Shown here: positions 3,323-39,062 of the stretch, in pieces
Numbering within the stretch: position 1 is the stretch's first letter
Layout of the letters: every line of letters starts with the position of its first letter
Origin: an uncultured virus (IMG/VR IMGVR_UViG_3300047552_000880)
Lineage: Duplodnaviria; Heunggongvirae; Uroviricota; Caudoviricetes
Reading direction: 5' to 3' (one strand)
Length of the DNA stretch: 63,892 nt
IMG/VR virus record: IMGVR_UViG_3300047552_000880
Location: 62,001-125,892 of that record
Position numbers and translations under genes: made by a program
Notes under the pieces: model-generated
Databases searched by the model: none
Told to the model about the DNA's origin: nothing
What the model saw: only the letters and a program-made list of their open reading frames with translations

Positions 3323-4279
3323 ATGATTACCTCAAGACAAGGCTTGATAGATTATGCGCTCCGTAAATTGGGTGCACCAGTGATTGAAATCAATATCGAT
3401 GTTTCTCAGGTAGAGGATAGAGTCGATGAAGCATTACAATTTTTTCAGGACTTCCATTATGATGCTACAGAGAGATTGTACCTCAAGCACCAGATAACAG
3501 GAACAATAATTACGGTTTCGGATGCAACGAACTTTACTGTCGGCGAGAATGTTGTGTGTAGTAACGGAACTACGTTTGCGATTGATAGCAAAACACCAAC
3601 AACCCTCATCACAAAAAATTGTTATAACGCACAGGGTATTGATAAGCAGCCTGTGCCAGCATTATCAACAATTATCGGACAGACTTCTGGCGCAACCGCG
3701 ACTGTCGTATCAAAAGTTGCTGGTGACACAGAAAACGGATTTGTTACTGTCGGTGAAATGGTCACTGGTGTGACTCGGGTTCTTCCTTGGAGTGGTGCAA
3801 CCAGCAAGACTAATTATTATTTCGATCCAAAGTATCAGACAATTATTAGTTCATTTGCTAATATCAGTTCCACTTCAATGATCTATTTTGAGCAATTGCA
3901 GAGTCACATTGCTTTATTGGATCAATTACTAAAACCAATTGAGTCTATTTCTTTTAATCAGAAAATGAATAGCGTTCGCATTGACATGGATTGGAGCGAA
4001 GCGACTATTGGTGCTTTCCTGATTTTTGACTGTTTCAGAATTCTTGATCCAGAAGTATTCACGAAAATATACAATGATCGTATGCTGAAAAAGTTGGTCA
4101 CAGCAAAGATCAAATATCAGTGGGCAAGTAACACACAGAAATATCAAGGAATTCAGCTTCTTGGTGGGGTTACTATTGATGCATCAACTTTAATGGCACA
4201 GGCAGTCGCTGAAATCGAAGCCGCTGAAGCTGAGATTAGGGATTCTTATGAAATTCCTCCTATCGGGTTTATAGCATGA
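3323..4279 (+). CDS. gp13: Neck protein gp13
   Basis: LIDYALRKLGAPVIEINI, QVEDRVDEALQFF and KYQGIQLLGGVTID motifs of T4-like gp13. Confidence 0.92.
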   Translation: MITSRQGLIDYALRKLGAPVIEINIDVSQVEDRVDEALQFFQDFHYDATERLYLKHQITGTIITVSDATNFTVGENVVCSNGTTFAIDSKTPTTLITKNCYNAQGIDKQPVPALSTIIGQTSGATATVVSKVAGDTENGFVTVGEMVTGVTRVLPWSGATSKTNYYFDPKYQTIISSFANISSTSMIYFEQLQSHIALLDQLLKPIESISFNQKMNSVRIDMDWSEATIGAFLIFDCFRILDPEVFTKIYNDRMLKKLVTAKIKYQWASNTQKYQGIQLLGGVTIDASTLMAQAVAEIEAAEAEIRDSYEIPPIGFIA

Positions 4280-18604: not shown

Positions 18605-18959
18605 AACGATAATTAAAGCTGATCCAAGAGAAGTCATTGTTAAATGGGTCGGAAGTGGTACAGATACACTTACCCTTGCCTCTCTTGTTAGTACAGGTCA
18701 GACATTGACAGGAACCGTTGTACCTACAGTGGATATCCTAGCTGTTAGTACAAGCATCAGTGCTGCCGGTGAATGCACCATTACTCGTAACGGGCAGGAT
18801 GTTCTGAAGGTTCATGATAATTACGAATTCCAGACAGATGGAATTATCACTGCTGTATTAAAAGAAAACTCTAGTCATGACATTGCTGTGAATCTTGCTG
18901 CTGCCGGTACTCTGATCATGAGACTGCGTAAGACACAAGGCTATAGTTTAGGCGAATAA
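18591..18959 (+). CDS. Hypothetical virion-associated protein
   Basis: 122 aa beta-rich ORF between portal and protease. Confidence 0.6.
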   Translation: MALNKTIIKADPREVIVKWVGSGTDTLTLASLVSTGQTLTGTVVPTVDILAVSTSISAAGECTITRNGQDVLKVHDNYEFQTDGIITAVLKENSSHDIAVNLAAAGTLIMRLRKTQGYSLGE

Positions 18960-20737
18960 TGAAATTCATTACAGAAACATTCAATGATCCACTGAGTCTC
19001 TTGCTTGAAGCCGATGAGACTGGTAAGAAATTCTTACATATTCAAGGACCATTTGCTGTTGCGGAACAGAAGAATAAGAACGGTCGTATCTATCCAAAGC
19101 ACGTTATGGAAAGTGCGGTAGACAGATATACCAACGATTATATTTCTCCTAGAAAAGCATTGGGGGAAATGAACCACCCTTGTTTCAAACCCGGAGCGAA
19201 GGTTTTTGTTTACAAAAAAGGTCTTATTAACATAGAAGATGTTAGTAAGGGAGATTATGTATATGGCACGACAAAGGAAGGTATTAGTAAACTTTCCCTA
19301 GTCATCGACACGACAGAAACGCTGTTTTCAGGGGAATTGTATAATTTTGATTCTAGAGCGTTTAAAGCAACAGTCACTCCATATCATAGATTCTATTTGA
19401 AAAATAGAAATGGCGAGTTCTCGGTTGTCACCGCAAATGACATTTTATCCGATTTTGAATCTGGTAGTAGAAAGTTATCGCATTCTTATATCCCAAGAAC
19501 ACTTGAAAATTGGCAGGGAGACGAAGAAGAATATATCGAATTATTTCCAACAAGAGAAAGAAAAAATACTTATAATAAATCTTCTCTTGTGATGAAATTT
19601 AAAGATTTCTGTGCTTTCATGGGTATATATCTTTCAGAGGGTAATATAGATTATTACACGAGGAAGGACGATTCGAGAACTTATGGTGAAATAACAATTA
19701 CACAAAATATAGGAACGAACCTCGATCTAATAATAGATTTGGTTTCTAAACTTGGTGTAGATTCTACGAATATTAGATTGAAAAGAAACGGAAAAAGTAC
19801 GGGGGTCGTAATTTCTGACAATCGTTTAGCCGATTATCTTTCTCAGTTCGGAGACTGTTATACAAAATTTGTACCAGATATAATACTGAACGCATCAAAG
19901 GAAAATATTAAAGAATTTCTTGATTGGTATCAGTTAGGCGATGGTTCCAGTGTAACTATAAACCAAAAAGGAAAAGATTACACCAGAAATGATGTATTCA
20001 CAGTTTCCGAAAAACTAGCAGACGGTCTAATCGAATGTATTATAAAATTGGGGTTTAGTACAACAAAGAGAGTACAACTTTCAAATGAAGATTATATGTT
20101 TGCCGGTAGAATTATAAAATGCGAGTCAAAATCTCCTTTGTTTAGAATGACCATTGGTAAAGGCGTTGGAAAATATGTTGACGAAAGATTTACTAAAATA
20201 AATAAAGAACAATATACAGGAAATGTATACTGTCTTGTAACAGAGACAGACAATTTTATGGTTGAACAAAACGGAACTGTATTTCTTAGTGGTAATTGCA
20301 GACTTAACATTGATTACGAAAGAGCCACACATCTTATCACAGAAATGAAACAGGATGGTAATGTGTGGATCGGTAAAGCTAAAGTTCTCAAGACCCCTAT
20401 GGGTAAGGTTCTTGAAGGATTGTTGGAATCTGGTGTTGCTGTAGGTGTTTCTACTCGCGGTGCCGGTTCTATCACAGAGTCGAATGGCGCTAAAATGGTA
20501 GGAGATGATTTTTTCATGACTTCCGTTGATGTTGTTTCAGACCCATCTGGTCCCGGATGTGTTGTTAATTCTATCATGGAAGGCAGAGAATTCGATCTAG
20601 ATGGGTTCGGCAATGCAATAGTCGAAGATTTAGCTGCAATCGCAAAAAAAGAATATGACAAAAAGCGATTGACAGAGCAAAGAAAAGTTGAATTGTTTAA
20701 CCAATTCATTAAAAGTGTCCAAATTGGGCGCAAATAA
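18959..20737 (+). CDS. gp21: Prohead protease gp21, intein-containing
   Basis: KNKNGRIYP, ALGEMNHP | intein | CRLNID...TPMGK...GVSTRGAGS...DVVSDPS. Confidence 0.95.
   Translation: MKFITETFNDPLSLLLEADETGKKFLHIQGPFAVAEQKNKNGRIYPKHVMESAVDRYTNDYISPRKALGEMNHPCFKPGAKVFVYKKGLINIEDVSKGDYVYGTTKEGISKLSLVIDTTETLFSGELYNFDSRAFKATVTPYHRFYLKNRNGEFSVVTANDILSDFESGSRKLSHSYIPRTLENWQGDEEEYIELFPTRERKNTYNKSSLVMKFKDFCAFMGIYLSEGNIDYYTRKDDSRTYGEITITQNIGTNLDLIIDLVSKLGVDSTNIRLKRNGKSTGVVISDNRLADYLSQFGDCYTKFVPDIILNASKENIKEFLDWYQLGDGSSVTINQKGKDYTRNDVFTVSEKLADGLIECIIKLGFSTTKRVQLSNEDYMFAGRIIKCESKSPLFRMTIGKGVGKYVDERFTKINKEQYTGNVYCLVTETDNFMVEQNGTVFLSGNCRLNIDYERATHLITEMKQDGNVWIGKAKVLKTPMGKVLEGLLESGVAVGVSTRGAGSITESNGAKMVGDDFFMTSVDVVSDPSGPGCVVNSIMEGREFDLDGFGNAIVEDLAAIAKKEYDKKRLTEQRKVELFNQFIKSVQIGRK
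19181..20296 (+). mobile_element. Intein (372 aa) with LAGLIDADG endonuclease in gp21
   Basis: Starts CFKPGAKV, block B VTPYHRF, FMGIYLSEG and LDWYQLGDG motifs, ends YTGNVYCL...VFLSGN followed by +1 Cys. Confidence 0.93.
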
Positions 20738-23044: not shown

Positions 23045-23069
23045 AAAAGGGCACTTCGGTGCCCTTTTT
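23045..23069. terminator. Bidirectional rho-independent terminator
   Basis: aaaagggcac-TTCG-gtgccctttt(t) between convergent gp23 and the endonuclease gene. Confidence 0.9.
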
Positions 23070-24709
23070 CATTTCTTTATCCCATAAACTTTGTTTCCGA
23101 AGTCATAAATCTTTGAATACCCCAATTGTACCATAATATCTTCTGTTTTCATTGAAGAAAATTCAGGGTATTTTTCAATAAGTTTCCAGCGCTGAAACGT
23201 CATTCTGGAGTAACGCTTGCCGCCCTTATACCAACTGAACCCTTGCTCTGTTTGTTTTAGTTCAGTGAACCCCATATTTTCATATAGTTTTCCTGTTCCC
23301 CACCGAAGATCACAATAAGAAATAATAGAGTCTGGTTTAGCGGATGACATAAAATGTTTTAGCAGTTTAGATGCACCGCCGATAACATTCGTATCGTTCA
23401 ATGAGCAAAATCGGAGCAATTCATACTGGTACTCTTTATTGAATCTAGACAAACCAAATGTCATTACAGCAACGAGTTCACCTGAATGTATTAGACCATA
23501 TCTATGTTTTGATTGACACCAGCCCTGTATGTGATTTGTTTCAATAAATTCTCTACACTCAGTTTCTGTTAATTCAATGACAGAACATTTTCTTGCATGA
23601 ATCTTTTTTTCTGTGATACCAAATATAGAACGAAGTCTTGAATAAACAATGTCTTCATTTTCGTCATCAAAGATTTTAATCAATCTGATACCAATTGAAT
23701 CGCACATAACTTTCTTGTGGTAATCGTCTTTATCTCGATGGAAGTAAAGACCATCATATTCAATCGCAATATTTTTCTCTGGAACAACTATATCCAACTC
23801 ATATGGAGCAATAAGTGTTCTGTCGTTTACCAAACAATTGAAACCGGCGTTCTGTAACATATCAACGATTCTTTTCTGTGGAACCGATCTGATGTTGCAT
23901 TTAGGACAGAATAATTCTTTTTTACTGAGAATGCTAGCCGAAAATTCAGTTGAACAGCAATTACATTTCCAGTTATATTTCTGATATCGAATATCCGATT
24001 CAATATACTTTTCAACTGTATCAAGACATTTTATGTTGCATGTAGTTTCAAGTAATGAAACCTTTTCTTTAAACCAAGGTATCGCAACATTCTGGTTATA
24101 GGTATCATTCAGTTTTCTTGACCCGAGCCTTTGTTGACGAATATTGTCTCTGTATTCTAAATTTGCATCTTTACAATCAACTGAACAGAAATCAGCAATA
24201 CTTTTACCATAAGGAGTTTGACTGACATTGTGAACAGGAATGATATCACCACACTCTTTACATTTCCGAATCAATTCGGAGCCATATTTTTCTATCTGAA
24301 GTAATGTCTTGATATCATTGAAATCGTGTTTCTCTTTAAGAGAGTCAACCGTTGCTTTTGACAGAAACTTATCTACCTTGCTCCATGAAAGATTACCATT
24401 CTGATCATATAGAATAGAAAAATCTTCCAATATCGGTAAAGAAGAATCTTTTGTAGCAGAATACTCGTATTTACATTTCAATGAACAAGTTGATCCAAAA
24501 GACCCTTTCTTGAAATTGAGTCGGTCGAATACATCACCACATACCTTACATGTAGGAATCTCACCATGAATAACACCGGCTATCAGAGTCATTGCAGATA
24601 GCCCCTTGCGAACACCAAGGTAGGATTCAACCATTTCTCTATCTTCTGAAAAGGAAGATAACACATTGCTATTCAAGCCGCCCTGTTTGTTCAAATACTT
24701 TTCTAACAT
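23069..24709 (-). CDS. Free-standing Hef-like homing endonuclease (Zn fingers, PD-(D/E)xK/Vsr-like domain, C-terminal domain)
   Basis: Several CxxC pairs, YELDIVVPEKNIAIEYDGLYFH, IHARKC, NHIQG and YELLRFC motifs; the only long minus-strand ORF. Start may be 24709 or 24733. Confidence 0.8.
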   Translation of the reverse strand: MLEKYLNKQGGLNSNVLSSFSEDREMVESYLGVRKGLSAMTLIAGVIHGEIPTCKVCGDVFDRLNFKKGSFGSTCSLKCKYEYSATKDSSLPILEDFSILYDQNGNLSWSKVDKFLSKATVDSLKEKHDFNDIKTLLQIEKYGSELIRKCKECGDIIPVHNVSQTPYGKSIADFCSVDCKDANLEYRDNIRQQRLGSRKLNDTYNQNVAIPWFKEKVSLLETTCNIKCLDTVEKYIESDIRYQKYNWKCNCCSTEFSASILSKKELFCPKCNIRSVPQKRIVDMLQNAGFNCLVNDRTLIAPYELDIVVPEKNIAIEYDGLYFHRDKDDYHKKVMCDSIGIRLIKIFDDENEDIVYSRLRSIFGITEKKIHARKCSVIELTETECREFIETNHIQGWCQSKHRYGLIHSGELVAVMTFGLSRFNKEYQYELLRFCSLNDTNVIGGASKLLKHFMSSAKPDSIISYCDLRWGTGKLYENMGFTELKQTEQGFSWYKGGKRYSRMTFQRWKLIEKYPEFSSMKTEDIMVQLGYSKIYDFGNKVYGIKK

Positions 24710-24714
24710 AAATA
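24708..24714 (+). promoter_or_regulatory. Late promoter (ATAAATA) upstream of the gp3 unit
   Basis: ATAAATA overlapping the likely start codon of the opposite-strand endonuclease. Confidence 0.45.
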
Positions 24715-24741
24715 CCCCAACAAAATAATTCATAGTATATC

Positions 24742-24945
24742 ATGGAATCAAGAACACATCAATTGGATAACACAAAACTCTCGGGTAACATCTTTGAAAG
24801 CATTCTAGCTGCTTCTCATGATTGCTATATGAGTCGAAGAAGGGAAAACAGAAACATAGAACTCGGGGCAGATGCACCAAGAGGAAAAGAATCTGCTTTC
24901 ATTGGTGGCTGTGTAACGAGTCTTCTGAAGGTACAAAATGGCTGA
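24742..24945 (+). CDS. Small hypothetical protein
   Basis: 67 aa ORF overlapping the gp3 start; no recognisable motif. Confidence 0.3.
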   Translation: MESRTHQLDNTKLSGNIFESILAASHDCYMSRRRENRNIELGADAPRGKESAFIGGCVTSLLKVQNG

Positions 24946-25420
24946 TGCTGGTTTTAACCATCTACAGACAAATGCATTCACGTTTACTTTACAGAGGATG
25001 CAAGCAACTACCTTTAGAATAACTTCAGCCGAGGTGCCATCAATTACTGTTCCTCCACCAAGTACAGGAACACAGGGAGCAACACAATATCATCCCGGTA
25101 GTTTCACTGAGTTTGATGAATTGTCTCTGAGATTTATTGTTGATGAAGACCTTCAGAATTACGAAGAAATATATCATTGGATAACACAACAGAGATATGC
25201 TATTGGCACTGCATATCAGCCAAAGTCAGATGCAGAGAAATTATTAGTGAGTGATGGGTTTCTAACGACTCTGACTAATAAGAGCAATCCAAATAGAACA
25301 ATCTATTTTAAGGATATGTTTCCTATTGCATTAGGTAGTCTTGCATTCAATGTTCAAGAGACACCAGAACCATTGACATGTTGGGTAACATTTAGATTCA
25401 GTTACTTTGAGTTGAGGTGA
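24938..25420 (+). CDS. gp3: Tail completion protein gp3
   Basis: FDELSLRFIVDEDLQNYEEIYHWI, FKDMFPIAL and VTFRFSYF motifs. Confidence 0.9.
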   Translation: MADAGFNHLQTNAFTFTLQRMQATTFRITSAEVPSITVPPPSTGTQGATQYHPGSFTEFDELSLRFIVDEDLQNYEEIYHWITQQRYAIGTAYQPKSDAEKLLVSDGFLTTLTNKSNPNRTIYFKDMFPIALGSLAFNVQETPEPLTCWVTFRFSYFELR

Positions 25421-25465
25421 TCATCATTACAGGTACTCTGTACTCATAAGGATTCATTAGACTCT

Positions 25466-26270
25466 GTTTGGGTAAACCAAACCATAGTGTGCTCCGCACA
25501 TCGCTACGCGATCATCCTTTATTTTTCTTTTTTCTTTTCGCGACTCCCTCCGGTCATACAGCGGTTGAGAAAAACAAAGTTACCCCGTTTCCGGGGGTAA
25601 GACGATGTTTCTCCCAACCACCGTATGATTTAAATCAGCATAGCTGATCATACATCGGCGTCGAATGAACTTAGTTTGATTTACAACCCCATTCCTATCT
25701 CAGAATGTTTAGGTAGCGCGGTGATTAAACGCTTTACGTAGTTACCTCTATCACTGTGGGTACTGACAAGAAATCAAACGTCTTCCGGGTTACTCAGTGT
25801 TCTACAGAACAAAATTCACTCCGGTTGTCAATACCGTGGCACGCCCGCAGGTGCCTCTGCCCACCCTATTTCAGATCATAGTGAGCTTACCCTACTCTTT
25901 CTTTCACCACCCGTTATCTACGATAAACTGAATTCGTGTTTTTCGGGAGGAACCATATCCTCTTGTGGTCTACTCGATTAGATGTAGTCAATCCATTTAG
26001 CTATGTGGTCAACCCATAGCCTAAGTCATCAATGCTTCGTTACGCTGCCATTGACACCAGCTACAGACAGTTTAAGGAGTAGATTGCGGCTCCATCAACA
26101 GAACAGTAGTTTTAAGTGGTACTCGTCACTGATAAATAAAATGCAGTTTAGTGAGTATGCGGCTCAACAGATGGTACAGCAGAACAGTAGTTTTAAGTGG
26201 TACTCGTCACTAACTTGGATATTTATGTTTTCGATGAACTGGTATTTTAACGTGGTACTCGGCACGAACA
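25466..26270 (-). ncRNA. Candidate large structured non-coding RNA, family unassigned; boundaries approximate
   Basis: No credible ORF; many helices whose mismatches become G-U pairs only on the minus strand; GAAA-capped long hairpin; minus-strand promoters at the right end. Confidence 0.6.
26099..26266. repeat. 32-bp exact direct repeat x2 plus a degenerate third copy
   Basis: cagaacagtagttttaagtggtactcgtcact at 26099-26130 and 26180-26211; gaactggtattttaacgtggtactcggcacg at 26236-26266. Confidence 0.9.
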
Positions 26271-26286
26271 GATGCTATTTATCAAC

Positions 26287-26314
26287 ACTATAACACAGAA
26301 AACGTTTGAGTCAA
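26287..26314 (-). promoter_or_regulatory. Sigma70-like promoter pointing into the non-coding region
   Basis: Minus strand TTGACT-16 nt-TATAGT with a TG extension. Confidence 0.55.
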
Positions 26315-26349
26315 CACATTGGTTGACACATTTTGAAAATAAATTATTT

Positions 26350-26790
26350 ATGCTTGATCATGAACAGCTTTTGACCGAATGGGAAACCGATTGTAAGGTT
26401 CCCTCTGATGCTCTGTTAGAGCGCATGTACAGACACCCCATCCTTCATAGCAAGTATCTTGGCTACCTACAGTCTTATAAGATCAGTAGTCGTAAGGTCA
26501 CACTTCGCTATCAGAAACTCCGGCTCCTGAAGACCCGTTACTATAACGGAGAACTGTCAGAAGAAGAACTAATTGAGAACAATCTTAAACAGTACCTGTA
26601 TAAGCGACCTTTGAAGTCGGAAATGGAATCTCTACTGGATGCCGATGCTGATCTTCAGAAACTTCAGGAACAGATTCTGTATATCGAGACTTTGATTCAG
26701 AGTACCGAGGCTATCATGAAAGAGTTGACTAACCAACACTATCTGTTCAAAAATATCATTGAACAGACCAAATATCTTACAGGGAATTGA
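26350..26790 (+). CDS. uvsY: Recombination mediator UvsY
   Basis: EWETDC, PILHSKYL, RYYNGE, LKSEMESLLDAD and KNIIE motifs; upstream of uvsW. Confidence 0.88.
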   Translation: MLDHEQLLTEWETDCKVPSDALLERMYRHPILHSKYLGYLQSYKISSRKVTLRYQKLRLLKTRYYNGELSEEELIENNLKQYLYKRPLKSEMESLLDADADLQKLQEQILYIETLIQSTEAIMKELTNQHYLFKNIIEQTKYLTGN

Positions 26791-26791
26791 A

Positions 26792-27064
26792 ATGTTTAGA
26801 GGCGCAGTAACACTTGACAAAAATACTGTTATCAATTTTTTGAACTCACATGGAGTCGATCTTGTTCAATGGGTAGCGGATAAACTGGATAACCCAAAGA
26901 TCGTTTACATGCACAGTAACATTTTTGTGGTCGGCGAATCAACAGAATTTTCTGTTGCCAAATCTAGTATGGAATCTTACCCTCTTTACTCACTGAGATT
27001 TTTTGGTGTTGATTTACTTGACTACGCTTTTGAGGAACTGAGATTTCAATCAGTGGTTCTATGA
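26792..27064 (+). CDS. Hypothetical protein
   Basis: Fills the uvsY-uvsW gap with an ATGA overlap. Confidence 0.5.
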   Translation: MFRGAVTLDKNTVINFLNSHGVDLVQWVADKLDNPKIVYMHSNIFVVGESTEFSVAKSSMESYPLYSLRFFGVDLLDYAFEELRFQSVVL

Positions 27065-28961: not shown

Positions 28962-29971
28962 CAGCACTTTATATAGAAATCTCCTACTCAAAACAAGTAG
29001 GGGCTGCTCTTGAGCGTTTTCGTGTAAAACGTGAATCTCCTTTTCTGGCAGCGGCTCGATGCCCAATCTGTGGCGACTCAGCTAAAAGTAAGTCAAAGAC
29101 TCGTTTCATCTTCTATGAGCGAGAAAGTCATATCAATGTGATGTGTCATAATTGTGGCTACAGTAGCTCTGTTGTCACATTTCTGAAGAATCATTACAAC
29201 AGTCTCTATAACGAATATATCATTGAGAAATATAGAGTAACCGGAAATGATAGAGAAAAAGAAACATTTAAAATACCTGTCTCTGCGCCTGTCATTAAAC
29301 CAAATTCATTAGATTTACCTCTGGTTAAAAATCTTCCGGTAACTCATATTGCGAGACAATATGTTGATTCAAGAAACTTGCCTGAATATGGGTTTCAATT
29401 TGCAGAAGACTTTTATGGGTTCTGTCAGCAATATAATAGTTCTATACCCGAGACTAAAAACAAAGAACCTAGACTCATAATTCCTTTCTTTGATCGGAAA
29501 GGAAACGTATTTGCATTTCAGGGGCGCGATCTAACAGGAAAGAGCAAGCAAAAATATATTACCATCACGATTGATGACAAGACACCAAAAATATTTGGTA
29601 TAGATCGTCTTGATGTTAAGCAGCCTGTTATCATTGTCGAGGGTCCAATTGATTCGTTGTTTCTTCCGAATTGCATTGCATCCGTGAATGCTTCTTTGGT
29701 TGCCACTGCCAAAAAGTTGACCGGAGTAATAAATAAAACCTCCACCACACTAGTCTATGATAATGAACCGAGAAATAAAATTATCGTAGAGCAGTATCAG
29801 AAGGCTATTGATGCCGGATATCCAATAGTCATATGGAGTAAAGAGTGCGAGGGGCTTAAAGATGTTAATGACATGATTCTTGCTGGAATCGATGTTAAGA
29901 AGGTGATCAAAAAGAACACTTTTAGTGGTATAATGGCGAAGATAAAATTTTTGGAGTGGAAAAAGGTATGA
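28958..29971 (+). CDS. gp61: DNA primase gp61
   Basis: RCPICGDS, CHNCG, RLIIPF, FQGR, VEGPIDSLF, DNEPRN and KDVNDM motifs. Confidence 0.96.
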   Translation: MTALYIEISYSKQVGAALERFRVKRESPFLAAARCPICGDSAKSKSKTRFIFYERESHINVMCHNCGYSSSVVTFLKNHYNSLYNEYIIEKYRVTGNDREKETFKIPVSAPVIKPNSLDLPLVKNLPVTHIARQYVDSRNLPEYGFQFAEDFYGFCQQYNSSIPETKNKEPRLIIPFFDRKGNVFAFQGRDLTGKSKQKYITITIDDKTPKIFGIDRLDVKQPVIIVEGPIDSLFLPNCIASVNASLVATAKKLTGVINKTSTTLVYDNEPRNKIIVEQYQKAIDAGYPIVIWSKECEGLKDVNDMILAGIDVKKVIKKNTFSGIMAKIKFLEWKKV

Positions 29972-32748
29972 CAGATATTGTGATCGACACATCACGTGAT
30001 GAATTGTTTGATGAAATTTCCTTGGCGCGACTCAAGGACTCGTATATGATCGAAGGAGAAACAACTCCGCAAGAGCGTTATGCGTTTGTTTCAAAACAGT
30101 TTGGGTCAAACCCAGAGCACGCACAGCGATTATATGACTATGCGTCAAAACATTGGTTTGGATATTCAACCCCTATTCTTTCGTTTGGTCGAAATAAAGG
30201 TGGTTTACCCATCAGTTGTTTCTTGGTATCTGTTCCTGATACTAAAGCTGGATTAGTTGATTCTTTGTCCGAAACAAATTGGCTTTCGATGCTCGGTGGC
30301 GGCGTTGGTGTTTATTTTGCGACTCGTGGCGCAGACGAAAAATCTGTTGGGGTGATTCCTCATTTGAAAGTATATGATGATTCTTGCCTTGCGTTCAAAC
30401 AGGGTTCGACCCGCCGTGGTTCATATGCTGCATATCTTGATATCAGTCATCCAGATATTATGGATTTTCTTGATATGCGCAAAGAAACCGGTGATCAGCG
30501 CCGCCGTTGTTTGAATCTCCACAATGCAGTGAATATTCCTGATTCTTTCATGAAATTGGTTGAGGGTCGAATGCTTGATCCTAAATTTGATGATACATGG
30601 GAATTGAAAGACCCTGTGTCCGGTAAAGTACACGAAAAGGTCAGTGCTTCGGAATTGTGGATTAAACTGCTTGATCTTCGTGCAGGAGTCGGTCGTGGTG
30701 AGCCTTATATTCTTTTCACTGACAATGTTAATAATCAGGTGAAACCTGTTTTGCGTGAACGTGGATATAAAGTCAATCAATCAAATCTTTGTGTTGCGCC
30801 AGAAACTCAAATTTTGACAGAAAACGGATATGAAACAATATCTGATCTGGAAAACGAAACTGTATCTGTGTGGAATGGACAGGAATTTTCTAATGTTATT
30901 GTTCGCAAGACCGGAGAAAATCAGAAACTGATCCGTGTTATCACAGATTCTGGGTTTGAACTTGAATGCACCCCATATCATAAGTTTTATGTCCATCAAT
31001 ATGTCAATGGCAAGAAAACTACTGTTGAAAAACGCGCTGGCGAATTGCTTCCCGGCGACAAGTTGATCAAGAGCGATTACCCTGTCATTGAGGGAACAGA
31101 GACTCTGGAATATGCCTATGACAACGGTTTTTATACAGCCGATGGTTGTCTTGAGGCTAGAGGTCAGCGCGTTTATCTCTATGGCGAGAAACAAAAATTG
31201 AAACCATTCTTGTCGGATATCTATGGGAATTGGTGTGAGTCAAGTAACTGTGATCGTATAACTGCTACTACCAGAAAACTGAAGGACAAATATTTTGTTC
31301 CTAATGGAGATTATACGATTAAATCTAAATTAGATTGGTTTGCTGGTTTGTGTGATGGTGATGGCACGGTTTGTCGGAACGGAGAATCTCAATCTATTCA
31401 AGTTTGTTCTGTTCGTAAAGAATTCTTACAACAGGTTCAATTGATGCTGCAAACACTTGGTGTGTATTCAAAGGTAACAAAATCAGTTGATGCAGGCTTT
31501 CGCCAGCTTCCAAAGAATGACGGTTCAGGAGAAAAAGGTGACTATTTCTGTCAGACAACGTATCGTCTGATGATTGGTCAACGTTATATTGAAAAACTCA
31601 TTTCTCTTGGTTTTAAGACACATCGATTGGTTCTGACCAATCATACTGGCAATCGTGAGTGTACCCATTTCATTAAGGTTGAAGCCATCATCGATGATGG
31701 TCGTTATGATGATACATATTGTTTCACCGAGCCAAAGCGACATATGGGCATGTTCAATGGTATGTTGACAGGTCAGTGCAACGAAATCATGTTGCATACC
31801 GATGCACAGAATACCGCTGTTTGCTGTTTGTCTTCGATCAACTTGGATCGTTGGGATGAATACAAAGACAATTATCAGTTTTTCCTTGATCTGATGGAAA
31901 TGCTTGACAATGTGTTACAATACTTCATTGACAACGCACCTGACACAATTTCTCGGGCAAAATATTCTGCGATTCGAGAGCGTTCTGTCGGTCTTGGTGT
32001 GATGGGTTATCATTCATACTTGCAACAAAAAGGCGTTGCATTTGACAGTGCAGTTGCAAAGGCATATAACAAAAAGATTTTCAAAACATTCAAGGAAATG
32101 CTTGATCGTGCTAACATTGATCTTGGTTCTTCTCGCGGTTCTCCTGCTCTTTTAGAAGGAACTGGATTGAGATTCGCGCATTGTAGTGCATTGGCACCAA
32201 CAGCATCGAATGCATTGATTTGCGGTAATGTGTCGCCTTCTATTGAGCCTTGGCATGCGAATGCTTTCCGTCAAGATACTTTGTCAGGTACTTTCATTCA
32301 GAAGAATAAGTATCTGAACCAGATTATCATTGAACTGGAAGCCGCAGGAAAATGTGATGCAGATGATGTGTGGAAGCAGATTGTTGCCGCAGATGGTTCT
32401 ATTCAAAATATTGATGTATTTGATGATCATACGAAGGAAGTCTTTAAGACAGCACCGGAGATTGAACAATTGATGTTAGTTGAACAGTTGACAGATCGAC
32501 AGCCATATATTGATCAAGGACAGTCTTTTAACATTTTTATTCGTCCAGACATTTCTATTCCTAAACTCCATGCGATACACTTCAACGTATGGAAAAAAGG
32601 TGGAAAGGGAATGTATTATGTAAGGTCAGAGAAATTGGCTAATGCAGAGAAAGTGAATGCAAAGGTAGTTCGAGTAAAATTGGAAGATGAAATAGATATG
32701 AAGGCAGTTGCCAATGGTGATTTGGAATGTTTGGTGTGTAGTGGATAG
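29968..32748 (+). CDS. nrdA: Class Ia ribonucleotide reductase alpha subunit, intein-containing
   Basis: PISCF, QGSTRRGS, SNL|intein|CNEI, VCCLSSINL, APTAS, YYVR and terminal CLVCSG motifs. Confidence 0.96.
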   Translation: MTDIVIDTSRDELFDEISLARLKDSYMIEGETTPQERYAFVSKQFGSNPEHAQRLYDYASKHWFGYSTPILSFGRNKGGLPISCFLVSVPDTKAGLVDSLSETNWLSMLGGGVGVYFATRGADEKSVGVIPHLKVYDDSCLAFKQGSTRRGSYAAYLDISHPDIMDFLDMRKETGDQRRRCLNLHNAVNIPDSFMKLVEGRMLDPKFDDTWELKDPVSGKVHEKVSASELWIKLLDLRAGVGRGEPYILFTDNVNNQVKPVLRERGYKVNQSNLCVAPETQILTENGYETISDLENETVSVWNGQEFSNVIVRKTGENQKLIRVITDSGFELECTPYHKFYVHQYVNGKKTTVEKRAGELLPGDKLIKSDYPVIEGTETLEYAYDNGFYTADGCLEARGQRVYLYGEKQKLKPFLSDIYGNWCESSNCDRITATTRKLKDKYFVPNGDYTIKSKLDWFAGLCDGDGTVCRNGESQSIQVCSVRKEFLQQVQLMLQTLGVYSKVTKSVDAGFRQLPKNDGSGEKGDYFCQTTYRLMIGQRYIEKLISLGFKTHRLVLTNHTGNRECTHFIKVEAIIDDGRYDDTYCFTEPKRHMGMFNGMLTGQCNEIMLHTDAQNTAVCCLSSINLDRWDEYKDNYQFFLDLMEMLDNVLQYFIDNAPDTISRAKYSAIRERSVGLGVMGYHSYLQQKGVAFDSAVAKAYNKKIFKTFKEMLDRANIDLGSSRGSPALLEGTGLRFAHCSALAPTASNALICGNVSPSIEPWHANAFRQDTLSGTFIQKNKYLNQIIIELEAAGKCDADDVWKQIVAADGSIQNIDVFDDHTKEVFKTAPEIEQLMLVEQLTDRQPYIDQGQSFNIFIRPDISIPKLHAIHFNVWKKGGKGMYYVRSEKLANAEKVNAKVVRVKLEDEIDMKAVANGDLECLVCSG
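30790..31776 (+). mobile_element. Intein (329 aa) with LAGLIDADG endonuclease in NrdA, Gln-terminated
   Basis: Starts CVAPETQILT, ECTPYHKF, GFYTADG and WFAGLCDGDG motifs, ends DTYCF...FNGMLTGQ followed by +1 Cys. Confidence 0.93.
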
Positions 32749-38809: not shown

Positions 38810-39000
38810 AATCTTTCATCTACAAAGTAACTTTACCGGAAGGCAAGACTATTCAGGGAAACCTGAATGTCTTTACTATCAGCGTAATTGCTGTCAACTC
38901 TACTACTGCAAAGGAATGGGTGAACCAAACCTTTGCTGGCGCAACAATGAACTACGTTGGTTCAACTGACCATGTACATCAGATTCCCAACCATGCATAA
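38806..39000 (+). CDS. Small hypothetical protein
   Basis: ATGA-coupled 64 aa ORF. Confidence 0.5.
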   Translation: MKSFIYKVTLPEGKTIQGNLNVFTISVIAVNSTTAKEWVNQTFAGATMNYVGSTDHVHQIPNHA

Positions 39001-39012
39001 ATAAATGCATGA

Positions 39013-39045
39013 GTCAGAAGCCATCGCTGACAATAACCAGATGGC
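39013..39045 (+). promoter_or_regulatory. H-type pseudoknot in the gene 32 leader (autoregulatory operator candidate)
   Basis: S1 GUCAG/CUGAC, S2 GCCAUC/GAUGGC; ATAAATA late promoter at 38997-39003. Confidence 0.7.
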
Positions 39046-39062
39046 ATTTTTAAAGGTGTAAA

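What the first reader, a model, noticed from the sequence alone, without database searches (positions are those of the whole stretch)
26067..26266. Array of five mini hairpin/pseudoknot units, possibly antitoxin-mimic or protein-decoy RNAs
Seen on the minus strand, 5' to 3': CGUG-CCGAGUAC-CACG-UUAAAAUAC (26266-26242); AGUG-ACGAGUAC-CACU-UAAAACUACU (26211-26186); UGAG-CCGCAUA-CUCA-CUAAACUGC (26166-26143); AGUG-ACGAGUAC-CACU-UAAAACUACU (26130-26105); GGAG-CCGCAAUCUA-CUCC-UUAAACUGU (26093-26067). All share a 4-bp stem, a loop starting (A/C)CG, a UAAA linker and a tail complementary to the loop (AGUA/UACU, GUA/UAC, GCA/UGC, GCA/UGU). Stems show compensatory changes between copies (C-G vs A-U; U-A vs G-C). 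Known: type III ToxI antitoxins are tandem ~35-nt H-type pseudoknots, and phage phiTE uses pseudo-ToxI repeats to evade ToxIN. Inference: processed small pseudoknot RNAs acting as anti-defence decoys, nuclease blocks or tandem ligand/protein sites at the 5' end of the large RNA. The loop-tail pairings are only 3-4 bp.
Basis: partly seen in the sequence, partly recalled or inferred. Interest (0 to 1): 0.75.

Follow-up and report, generated by a model that had tools for sequence, protein, structure and literature searches.

The report
Repeated start-site modules of phage RNA
The five small hairpin units are real repeats at the start of an untranslated RNA region beside the uvsY gene of a freshwater T4-like phage, but they look like amplified copies of a promoter-proximal module rather than antitoxin-like pseudoknots, and what they do is still unknown.

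Summary
All five units are in the sequence as described, on the minus strand. They are two repeat families, not one: A (three copies) and B (two copies). There is no regular tandem array. The 4-bp hairpins and the 3-4-bp loop-tail pairings are no better than chance, and the array RNA folds worse than shuffled sequence. No Rfam family matches, so ToxI and preQ1 membership fail.

The array lies in a 930-bp ORF-free gap between a tail-tube-family gene and uvsY of an uncultured freshwater T4-like phage. A promoter of the phage's over-represented extended -10 class points leftward into the gap. An intrinsic terminator lies about 700 nt downstream.

All three minus-strand ATAAATA (late-promoter-like) boxes of the window fall within 26220-26351. 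A1 and A2 each begin 8-9 nt after one.

The same composite (promoter, ATAAATA, GTTAGTGAC) heads a second noncoding locus in this phage. That locus belongs to a covarying structured RNA family, which in three related contigs sits upstream of uvsY.

My best reading, at confidence 0.3, is reiterated 5'-proximal recognition modules of an untranslated phage RNA. The main rival is a functionless product of recombination between promoter cassettes. No homologue of the array exists outside an identical twin record.

The parts
26287..26314 (-). P1: sigma-70-type promoter, TTGACT, 16 nt, TGtTATAGT (extended -10). The inferred start is near 26280.
   Evidence: scores it 10 of 12 with TG. Its -10 region belongs to the motif class TGTG[AT]TAnAnT, found 20 times in the 125.9-kb record against 4.27 +/- 2.0 in shuffles, with many copies directly upstream of same-strand ORFs by my reading, untallied. 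The start site is inferred, not mapped.
26276..26282 (-). ATAAATA box (late-promoter-like), 9 nt upstream of unit A1
   Evidence: The minus strand of the window holds only 3 such boxes against 12.2 +/- 3.6 expected, and all three lie within 26220-26351.
26232..26266 (-). Unit A1 (CGUG-CCGAGUAC-CACG-UUAAAAUAC...), the diverged A copy
   Evidence: 44.4 bits.
26220..26226 (-). ATAAATA box, 8 nt upstream of unit A2
26177..26211 (-). Unit A2 (AGUG-ACGAGUAC-CACU-UAAAACUACUGUUCUG)
   Evidence: 48.5 bits. Its flank GTTAGTGAC is shared with the second locus, P2.
26143..26166 (-). Unit B1 (UGAG-CCGCAUA-CUCA-CUAAACUGC). Read on the + strand it is GTTTAGTGAG..., lying 7 nt after a + strand ATAAATA box.
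   Evidence: (D6, I4).
26132..26138 (+). ATAAATA box on the + strand, pointing toward uvsY (218 nt upstream of its ATG) and back to back with unit A3
   Evidence: Its role as a uvsY late promoter is inferred.
26096..26130 (-). Unit A3, 34 of 35 nt identical to A2
   Evidence: 32-nt exact repeat; 47.5 bits.
26067..26093 (-). Unit B2 (GGAG-CCGCAAUCUA-CUCC-UUAAACUGU)
25575..26280 (-). Predicted untranslated transcript of about 0.7 kb (P1 RNA). The array is its first ~220 nt (C 23.5%, G 16.3%).
   Evidence: Promoter and terminator. No minus-strand ORF of >=40 aa and no small ORF of >=25 codons preceded by an SD-like motif; the two SD-preceded minus-strand ORFs are 12 and 13 codons. Folding z = +0.52 for the whole RNA, +2.03 for the array and -1.39 for the 3' 491 nt. 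Composition. Expression not shown.
25580..25600 (-). Intrinsic-terminator-like hairpin UUACCCCCGGAAACGGGGUAA followed by CUUUGUUUUU
26350..26790 (+). uvsY (146 aa from the ATG at 26350), divergent from P1
   Evidence: Pfam UvsY and PHROG 231 matches. Relatives align from residue 1 of the 146-aa form.
24938..25420 (+). Tail-tube-family gene (160 aa) that bounds the gap on the left
   Evidence: PHROG 45, E = 1.3e-27.

Best explanation
The array is the 5' domain of an untranslated leftward RNA of about 0.7 kb (P1 RNA). It starts at an early-class promoter beside uvsY and ends at an intrinsic terminator.

The 'units' are locally amplified copies of one start-site-proximal module: three direct A copies, plus two B copies that read better as inverted partial copies. 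The module is an ATAAATA box, then 5-14 nt, then GUU(A/C)GUG(A/C)C, and in the A copies a further ...CUUAAAAC.

The same module occurs once at the head of a second noncoding locus of this phage (P2). Its RNA part corresponds to the apical part of the 5' hairpin of the conserved structured RNA made there.

I infer that the copies act as reiterated 5'-proximal recognition sites for a factor that reads this element on the RNA. The mini-hairpins are at most weak presentation scaffolds. They are not ToxI-like or preQ1-like pseudoknots.

Shown: the repeats, the context, the promoter class, the box distribution, and the shared module between P1 and P2.
Inferred: transcription, the start sites, and any binding.
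For: Context:
- The window is a T4-like phage. Pfam or PHROG matches identify gp23, gp22, the prohead protease, UvsY, UvsW, primase, NrdAB, gp32, RegA, gp43-45, UvsX and gp41.
- The 930-bp gap at 25421-26349 has no credible ORF. The 96-aa + strand ORF scores -0.167 on codon usage. Eight real genes score 0.12-0.32, and spurious antisense frames score -0.07 +/- 0.10.
- Reading TGA or TAG as sense gives nothing convincing.
- No neighbour's protein leaves a trace in the gap.

Transcription unit:
- P1 scores 10 of 12 with an extended -10, and a minus-strand terminator lies about 700 nt downstream.
- The motif class TGTG[AT]TAnAnT occurs 20 times against 4.27 +/- 2.0 in shuffles (maximum 11 in 100 shuffles).
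- ATAAATA lies 21-66 nt upstream of the gp23, gp22, sheath and gp32 genes. It occurs 13 times on the + strand of the window but only 3 times on the minus strand, where 12.2 +/- 3.6 are expected and 0 of 200 shuffles give <=3. All three minus-strand boxes fall within 26220-26351.
- The only other minus-strand box in the 125.9-kb record directly follows P2.

Shared module:
- GTT(T)AGTGA occurs 8 times in 251.8 kb. Three of those lie 5-10 nt after an ATAAATA box: at 26226 (-), 26132 (+) and P2. A1 carries the variant GTTCGTGCC.
- TGTTAnnnT-N0-6-ATAAATA occurs only at P1 and P2 in the complete 178-kb twin genome, and 0 times in four related records.
- Alignments show the collinear module in A1, A2, P2, and B1 read on the + strand.

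The P2 RNA is a real structured family:
- Its z-score is -3.21, and 0 of 100 shuffles fold as well.
- It has homologues in L009, L010 and L028.
- 12 of 31 predicted pairs change on both sides, 0 of 500 shuffles reach this, and slid controls give <=2 such pairs.
- In those contigs the RNA lies upstream of uvsY and is read away from it, like P1 RNA.

Constraint at the analogous position in relatives: the L010 and L028 gaps are 89.6% identical, against 74.1% at third codon positions of the adjacent uvsY.
Against: - No expression data exist; no RNA run holds the stretch.
- No homologue of the array exists beyond an identical twin record, so conservation cannot be tested.
- Hairpins and loop-tail pairings are at chance level and thermodynamically marginal.
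- B units are not found by the A-unit model.
- The body of P1 RNA does not match the P2-family core model at E<=10 or an nhmmer profile.
- A plain local alignment of P1 against P2 scores 24, against a shuffle mean of 21.3 and a maximum of 32. The P1/P2 relationship therefore rests on composite motifs that I defined after seeing them.
- Sigma-70-like matches of >=10 of 12 occur 26 times in the record.
- The module could equally act on DNA, as a promoter or operator, rather than on RNA.
Confidence: 0.3

Rival explanations
1. The array is a by-product without a function of its own. The gap is a lineage-specific insertion built by recombination between the phage's repeated promoter cassettes (PeSL-like shuffling). 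The units are duplicated and inverted cassette fragments, and the small hairpins are incidental.
For: - The gap is lineage-specific. In 10 of the 15 non-twin loci, a same-strand ORF of >=157 aa ends within 61 nt of uvsY (I did not check the families of those ORFs).
- The phage carries many near-identical promoter cassettes, such as TTCTGTGATACAATAACATCATCAACAAAACTTGA in three early gaps.
- A2 and A3 share an exact 32-nt repeat 81 nt apart, which breaks short-read contigs.
- The hairpin and pseudoknot statistics are at chance level.
- Passages of PMC2839356 and PMC4122927 describe promoter/stem-loop cassettes that mediate indels in T4-type phages.
Against: - This is the largest noncoding gap of a compact genome, yet it keeps an intact promoter and terminator.
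- ATAAATA is strongly avoided on the minus strand elsewhere but occurs three times here.
- The stems are kept through two compensatory outer-pair changes.
- A noncoding region at the analogous position in L010 and L028 is more conserved than synonymous sites.
Confidence: 0.3
2. The region is a replication origin of the T4 ori(uvsY)/oriF kind. The P1 transcript would form an R-loop that primes leading-strand synthesis, and the repeats would lie in the primer or unwinding region, or serve as oriE-like direct repeats.
For: - The position beside uvsY matches T4 oriF. T4 origins are a promoter plus a downstream unwinding element, and oriE carries direct repeats of unknown role (passages of PMC3016281).
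- An untranslated transcription unit has no obvious coding purpose.
- The divergent promoter region at 26300-26374 is 74% A+T, the 99th percentile of 50-nt windows.
- L009 and L010/L028 (the latter two ~90% identical to each other) also have ORF-poor gaps of about 0.9 kb upstream of uvsY.
Against: - The stretch downstream of P1 is not A+T-rich: 56-68% against a genome median of 60%. The easily melted stretch lies upstream of P1.
- The array RNA is G-poor, with 46.6% purine.
- The repeats are neither evenly spaced nor helically phased.
- There is no change in cumulative GC skew beyond that caused by the minus-strand genes.
- In the relatives the gap holds a covarying structured RNA, which an R-loop primer does not need.
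Confidence: 0.12
3. The units are a type III antitoxin mimic (pseudo-ToxI-like) or another RNA decoy. The units would be cut at their A-rich tracts and would neutralise a host ToxN/AbiQ-type endoribonuclease.
For: - The RNA would be made from an early-class promoter.
- It is multi-copy, and each unit carries UAAA(A), the kind of A-rich site that ToxN-family enzymes cut (AA/AU, A/AAAA and A/AAA in passages of PMC5086642).
- Phage TE escapes ToxIN by expanding a pseudo-ToxI repeat (search listing and abstract of PMC3475682; review passage).
- Three of the spacings (36, 37 and 45 nt) fall near known monomer sizes.
Against: - There is no uniform tandem array, and there are two unrelated unit types.
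- The pseudoknot pairing is at chance level.
- No Rfam match appears at E<=10.
- The A-unit core has 0 matches in one genome each of 185,579 species. This argues against a near-identical host antitoxin, but the pattern was strict.
- The host is unknown.
Confidence: 0.04
4. The stretch is protein-coding: the 96-aa + strand ORF at 26003-26293 that spans the array.
For: - The ORF is on the same strand as the neighbouring genes.
- A2 and A3 are 81 nt (27 codons) apart, so they are in frame.
- An AAGGAG lies upstream of an internal TTG.
Against: - The codon score of -0.167 is below all eight real genes tested and within the spurious-frame distribution.
- There are no Pfam or PHROG hits.
- A1, B1 and B2 would be read in different frames from their sister copies (by my reading).
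- The ORF overlaps the P1 promoter.
Confidence: 0.03

Closest known systems
PeSL (promoter-early stem-loop) regulatory cassettes of T4-type phages (Arbiol et al. 2010, PMC2839356; Comeau et al. 2014, PMC4122927; passages read)
   Same: Both are repeated intergenic cassettes built on a strong sigma-70-like promoter with an adjacent small stem-loop. Both are present at several places in one genome and are associated with lineage-specific insertions. A stem-loop just downstream of the -10 is one of the described subclasses.
   Different: PeSL stem-loops are stable, G/C-tract terminators. Here the stems are 4 bp (-1.2 to -2.4 kcal/mol). The module also carries an ATAAATA box, is reiterated five times within 200 nt, and heads untranslated RNAs rather than ORFan genes.
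Type III antitoxin RNAs (ToxI, AntiQ, CptI) and the pseudo-ToxI of phage TE (review PMC5086642, passages read; PMC3475682, listing only)
   Same: Both are several short units in one untranslated RNA, each with an A-rich tract, and both have proposed small pseudoknots. The phage-borne version would be an anti-defence decoy.
   Different: Here there is no uniform head-to-tail repeat, no terminator-plus-toxin gene, no sequence or Rfam similarity, and no statistical support for the pseudoknot.
T4 replication origins oriF/ori(uvsY), oriG and oriE (review PMC3016281, passages read)
   Same: Both are a noncoding promoter-driven element next to uvsY. oriE carries direct repeats of unknown role.
   Different: Here the promoter faces away from uvsY, no A+T-rich unwinding element lies downstream of it, and the repeats are irregular. 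T4 has no comparable 0.9-kb gap (that last point is recalled, not tested).
preQ1-I riboswitch aptamer (topology recalled; Rfam 15 models tested)
   Same: The proposed topology is the same: a short stem, an A-rich linker, and a 3' tail pairing to the loop.
   Different: There is no Rfam match at E<=10 on 241 nt. The stem is 4 bp, the units are shorter than the smallest known aptamer, there is no downstream ORF or expression platform, and the pairing is at chance level.
The covarying structured RNA found here (P2 RNA of this phage; L009, L010 and L028)
   Same: The promoter type, the ATAAATA box (P2 only), the 5' element GUUNGUKRC..CUYA, a similar length (0.6-0.75 kb), and the position and orientation relative to uvsY as in the relatives.
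   Different: The body of P1 RNA does not match the family core. The outer 9-bp stem of the family's 5' hairpin is missing, and the 5' element is reiterated.

Membership tests
Type III antitoxin RNA (ToxI-like) | Head-to-tail tandem array of near-identical repeats of one length (34-36 nt in the ToxIN family, per PMC5086642) | tested here: not met
   TRF finds no array. Spacings are 55, 45, 36 and 37 nt. There are two unit families.
Type III antitoxin RNA (ToxI-like) | Array followed by a terminator and a ToxN/AbiQ-type endoribonuclease gene | tested here: not met
   There is no minus-strand ORF of >=40 aa between the array and the terminator. The next minus-strand gene is an HNH homing endonuclease with no ToxN-type Pfam hit.
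Type III antitoxin RNA (ToxI-like) | Each monomer folds into an H-type pseudoknot | tested here: inconclusive
   Loop-tail helices of 2-4 bp are reached by 6-99% of shuffles. No pseudoknot energy model or probing was available.
Type III antitoxin RNA (ToxI-like) | A-rich toxin cleavage site in every repeat | tested here: met
   Every unit has UAAA or UAAAA. This is a non-specific feature in a genome that is 60% A+T.
Type III antitoxin RNA (ToxI-like) | For a mimic: sequence likeness to a host antitoxin, or a match to a catalogued antitoxin RNA | tested here: not met
   0 matches of GTGNCGAGTACCACNTNAAANTAC in genome contigs. No Rfam 15 family matches at E<=10.
preQ1-I riboswitch | Match to the Rfam covariance model, and a regulated gene or expression platform downstream | tested here: not met
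   No match at E<=10. No ORF lies downstream on the minus strand.
PeSL cassette | Strong sigma-70-like promoter, repeated at several intergenic places in the genome | tested here: met
   P1. The class motif occurs 20 times against 4.27 expected. The P1/P2 composite is unique to these two sites.
PeSL cassette | Adjacent stable stem-loop that works as a terminator | tested here: not met
   The unit hairpins are 4 bp, -1.2 to -2.4 kcal/mol, with pair probability 0.02-0.42.
PeSL cassette | Lies at sites of insertion, deletion or replacement between related phages | tested here: met
   The 930-bp gap is absent from most relatives, and none of them has similar sequence.
T4 R-loop origin (oriF/oriG type) | [quoted passage not shown] | tested here: not met
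   The stretch downstream of P1 is 56-68% A+T against a genome median of 60%. The least stable 100 nt begin at 26275 and run upstream of P1.
T4 R-loop origin (oriF/oriG type) | Persistent R-loop and replication start | not testable with these tools
   This needs infected cells.
T4 oriE-type iterons | Cluster of evenly spaced short direct repeats | tested here: not met
   The spacing is irregular and there are two repeat types.
P2-type structured phage RNA (defined here) | Match to the 202-position core model (31 pairs) | tested here: not met
   No hit in 25570-26280 at E<=10 with filters off. The nhmmer profile gives no hit. The twin genome has one member only, 169 bits.
P2-type structured phage RNA (defined here) | Promoter-proximal 5' element, and position and orientation beside uvsY | tested here: met
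   for the element. For position: L009:3040-3790 lies upstream of uvsY at 3964, and L028:1600-2240 lies upstream of uvsY at 2501.

The most novel reading that the evidence does not exclude
P1 RNA is a neofunctionalised sister of a conserved structured phage RNA. Its recognition element has been amplified into a multi-site 5' domain that acts as a decoy. It would titrate either a host RNA-targeting defence factor or the factor that normally binds the 5' hairpin of the P2-family RNA, early in infection.
Probability: 0.12. Interest if true: 0.7.

Novelty: new variant of a known kind. Interest (0 to 1): 0.35.

Why it matters
If the module is a real recognition element, this locus shows a phage amplifying the 5' signal of one of its own noncoding RNAs. 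That would give an entry point to an undescribed structured RNA family that sits beside uvsY in several freshwater T4-like phages, which is the position of T4 oriF. If it is only debris from promoter-cassette recombination, it is a clear example of how such cassettes create long noncoding gaps and hairpin arrays that look functional. That would be a useful caution for scans that read small stems by eye.

Tried and rejected
- Rfam: gathering thresholds on the window gave two tRNAs only. E<=10 on 1151 nt and on 241 nt gave only chance-level snoRNA and plant-virus pseudoknot hits.
- Relatives by UvsY: viral contigs and metagenome contigs gave an identical twin plus relatives at 32-64% identity. 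None has sequence like the gap or clusters of the motif.
- Pattern scans for the A unit: searches found the twin only. One search found 0 in genome contigs. One search found 0 with <=3 mismatches in four related records, including two that are 99-100% complete.
- BLAST of the 929 bp against five related records gave only 14-26-nt chance matches.
- The phage collection in 'distant' mode gave no match.
- Sequencing runs: no RNA holder is listed. The DNA holders are the probable source sample and one other sample with a small share.
- Laying contigs added only that contigs break at the 32-nt A2/A3 repeat. The second sample does not cover the gap.
- Decayed gene: tblastn of all stop-to-stop ORFs of the related loci and of the window against the gap gave <=23.5 bits.
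- Alternative genetic codes gave nothing convincing.
- Small minus-strand ORFs with an SD: none credible.
- Analogous repeat arrays in the relatives' gaps: none.
- P1 RNA as a member of the P2 family: rejected for the body.
- A structure-aware alignment of all five units for pair counting could not be obtained from MAFFT, so the stems were read directly.
- Small pseudoknots after early-gene stop codons (a lead from earlier notes): the early-block gaps hold promoter cassettes, not the units, and there are no look-alikes by sequence.
- An 11-of-14 likeness of B2 to the -30 box of the phage's promoter class (AATCTACACATAAA) is expected by chance about once in four such regions by my estimate, so I dropped it.
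Full report
**Observation.** I wrote a strict descriptor after seeing them: a 4-bp Watson-Crick stem, a loop of 6-11 nt starting [AC]CG, 0-1 nt, then TAAA. It hits only these five sites on both strands of the whole 125,892-bp virus record that contains the window. Block shuffles give a mean of 2.07 hits genome-wide.

The five are not independent examples. The repeat finder gives a 35-nt family with three copies (A3 100%, A2 97%, A1 66%) and a separate 14-nt pair, B2/B1, at 86%. A2 plus B1 and A3 plus B2 align as a duplicated di-unit. A covariance model built from A1-A3 with the 4-bp stem recovers only the three A copies, at 44-48 bits. It does not report B1 or B2 at E<=10 in the window with filters off. 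Tandem Repeats Finder sees no array. The spacings are 55, 45, 36 and 37 nt.

**Is the structure more than chance?** It is not, by the tests I could run.
- A 4-bp hairpin with a 3-11-nt loop appears in 39-54% of shuffles of each unit.
- The best loop-tail helix (2-4 bp) is reached by 6-99% of shuffles.
- The isolated hairpins are worth -1.2 to -2.4 kcal/mol. In a 241-nt context their pair probabilities are 0.02-0.42 on the minus strand.
- The 226-nt array RNA folds worse than shuffles: z = +2.03, with 198 of 200 shuffles folding at least as well. The + strand gives z = +0.54.

What remains in favour of hairpins is one compensatory change of the outer pair within A (C-G to A-U) and one within B (U-A to G-C). 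By my rough estimate the two together have a chance probability of about 0.01-0.1. That is suggestive, not decisive.

**Context.** The window is part of an uncultured freshwater T4-like myovirus.
- Left of the gap: prohead protease, scaffold, gp23, a minus-strand HNH homing endonuclease, and a tail-tube-family gene.
- Right of the gap: UvsY, UvsW, primase and NrdAB.
- Further on: gp32, RegA, clamp and clamp loader, gp43, UvsX and gp41.

uvsY most likely starts at the ATG at 26350. Its Pfam match begins at residue 36 of the longer frame, and relatives align from residue 1 of the 146-aa form.

The 930 bp at 25421-26349 are therefore intergenic, and they do not code.
- The 96-aa + strand ORF over the array has a codon score of -0.167. 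Eight real genes score 0.12-0.32, and spurious antisense frames score -0.07 +/- 0.10.
- There are no family hits.
- The sister units would be read in different frames.
- No credible small minus-strand ORF exists.
- Reading TGA or TAG as sense adds nothing convincing.
- No trace of a neighbour's protein is left in the gap.

**A leftward transcription unit.** A promoter TTGACT-16-TGtTATAGT lies at 26314-26287. An intrinsic-terminator-like hairpin with a U-run lies at 25600-25580 on the same strand. Generic sigma-70 matches of this quality are common, 26 in the record. But the -10 region belongs to a class, TGTG[AT]TAnAnT. That class occurs 20 times in the record against 4.27 +/- 2.0 in shuffles, and many copies sit directly upstream of same-strand ORFs, by my reading (untallied).

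The heptamer ATAAATA resembles the core of T4-type late promoters (recalled). It lies 21-66 nt upstream of the gp23, gp22, sheath and gp32 genes. It occurs 13 times on the + strand of the window but only three times on the minus strand, where 12.2 +/- 3.6 are expected and 0 of 200 shuffles give three or fewer. All three minus-strand boxes fall within 26220-26351. A1 starts 9 nt after one box and A2 starts 8 nt after another. A + strand box at 26132 abuts A3 and points toward uvsY.

Transcription itself is not shown. No RNA run holds the stretch.

**The units are copies of a promoter-proximal module.** The only other minus-strand ATAAATA in the 125.9-kb record sits right after a second strong extended -10 promoter, P2, at G000:22001.
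- P1 and P2 share TTGAC, then TTTTCtTGTGTTAnAnT, then GATAAATA, then GTT(A/C)GTG(A/C)C.
- TGTTAnnnT-N0-6-ATAAATA occurs only at these two sites in the complete 178-kb twin genome, and nowhere in four related records.
- GTT(T)AGTGA occurs eight times in 251.8 kb. Three of those lie 5-10 nt after an ATAAATA box: before A2, before the + strand reading of B1, and at P2.
- Against this, a plain local alignment of the two loci scores 24, against a shuffle mean of 21.3 and a maximum of 32. I defined the composite motifs after seeing them.

**What P2 heads.** P2 is followed by 586 ORF-free nucleotides that fold far better than shuffles: z = -3.21, with 0 of 100 shuffles folding as well. There is no Rfam match. 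The same RNA is present in three contigs of related phages, L009, L010 and L028. A 202-position core has 31 predicted pairs.
- 12 of the 31 pairs change on both sides.
- 91.7% of cells are paired.
- 0 of 500 shuffles reach the observed values.
- Slid controls give 25-45% pairing and at most two such pairs.
- The caveat is that the structure was derived from these four sequences.

In those contigs the RNA lies just upstream of uvsY and is read away from it. That is the position and orientation of P1 RNA in the window. In the L010/L028 pair this region is 89.6% identical, against 74.1% at third codon positions of uvsY.

By my reading, the family's 5' hairpin has a 7-9-bp outer stem that covaries between P2 and L028. 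Its apical sequence (UAGUGACACUU, UGGUUGUGCUU, GUUCGUUGCAC) aligns with the start of the A units.

The body of P1 RNA is not a detectable member of this family. The core model gives no hit in 25570-26280 at E<=10, and an nhmmer profile gives none. The twin genome holds one member only.

**Comparison with known systems.**
- *Type III antitoxins.* According to passages of the review PMC5086642, these are uniform tandem repeats of 34-36 nt, followed by a terminator and a ToxN-type gene, and each monomer is an H-type pseudoknot flanked by A-rich cleavage sites. Only the A-rich tract is met here.
- *preQ1-I.* It fails on the Rfam match and on the lack of any regulated gene.
- *T4 oriF/oriG.* Passages of PMC3016281 describe a promoter plus a downstream A+T-rich unwinding element. 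P1 has the promoter and the uvsY position. However, the A+T peak (74% at 26300-26374) lies upstream of it, and the stretch downstream is ordinary.
- *PeSL cassettes.* Passages of PMC2839356 and PMC4122927 describe the closest known kind: repeated strong promoters with adjacent stem-loops at indel sites. Their stem-loops, though, are stable terminators.

**Verdict.**
It is over-read as structure.
- The ToxI and preQ1 interpretations are not supported.
- The best-supported description is a cluster of reiterated, partly inverted copies of a start-site-proximal module at the head of an untranslated leftward RNA beside uvsY.
- The module is shared with a second locus, which makes a conserved structured RNA.
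- Whether the copies act on RNA (my preferred reading, confidence 0.3), act on DNA, or are recombination debris (0.3) cannot be settled without expression data or closer relatives. Neither exists in the collections I could search.

**Limits.** No large protein search was run for the 96-aa ORF. I did not try to identify the host. I did not search the literature for this specific element.

Noticed in passing
Outside the window: G000:C1:21386-21998 (= L047:687-1299, minus strand); homologues at L009:3040-3790(-), L028:1600-2240(-) and L010:1-590(-): An undescribed structured noncoding RNA family of about 0.6-0.75 kb. The copy in this phage has z = -3.21 and no Rfam match. 12 of 31 core pairs covary across four sequences. 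In the three related contigs it lies divergently upstream of uvsY and is more conserved than uvsY third codon positions (89.6% against 74.1%). Only four members were found, and none in two complete related genomes.
   Followed up: partly
Whole record G000, for example window 34597, 37575, 38334, 45515 and 48580 (+) and G000 2327, 4992, 5477, 14883, 18014 and 21394 (-): A phage promoter class with an extended -10, TGTG[AT]TAnAnT. It occurs 20 times against 4.27 expected. Several copies carry a conserved upstream box AATCTACACATAAA in place of a -35. Three early gaps carry the near-identical cassette TTCTGTGATACAATAACATCATCAACAAAACTTGA. This looks like a middle- or early-promoter system with PeSL-like repetition.
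   Followed up: partly
window 1-63892, both strands: ATAAATA shows strong strand asymmetry: 13 on the gene strand and 3 on the other, against 12.2 expected on the other strand. This fits a late-promoter core that is selected against in antisense.
   Followed up: partly
window 18959-20737 and 29956-32748: The prohead protease gene (592 aa) shows a weak intein-splicing match (E = 0.006). NrdA (930 aa) carries an intein with a LAGLIDADG domain.
   Followed up: no
window 23069-24733 (-): A 554-aa HNH-type homing endonuclease lies between gp23 and the tail-tube-family gene. L013 has a 530-aa minus-strand ORF in the same slot, and L003 has a 501-aa minus-strand ORF between the tail-tube-like ORF and uvsY. 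I did not examine either ORF.
   Followed up: no
window 26101-26209: Short-read contigs of the two runs of the probable source sample break at the exact 32-nt A2/A3 repeat. The 109-nt piece between has depth 45.1 against about 52 in one run and 97.5 against about 64 in the other. Copy-number variation of the di-unit cannot be told from this.
   Followed up: no
window 38990-39062 (+): The gp32 leader holds an ATAAATA box and a 6-bp hairpin (GCCAUC...GAUGGC), followed by AUUUUUAAAGGUGUAAAAUG. This resembles, from recall, the layout of the T4 gene 32 operator: a structured element followed by a UUAAA-rich leader.
   Followed up: no
window 26796-26830 (+) and 26903-26924 (+): A weak A-unit-like sequence lies on the + strand at the 3' end of uvsY (model R1, 11.8 bits, E = 2.7). 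It is part of a 22-nt direct repeat pair at 82% (D4). It is probably chance.
   Followed up: no
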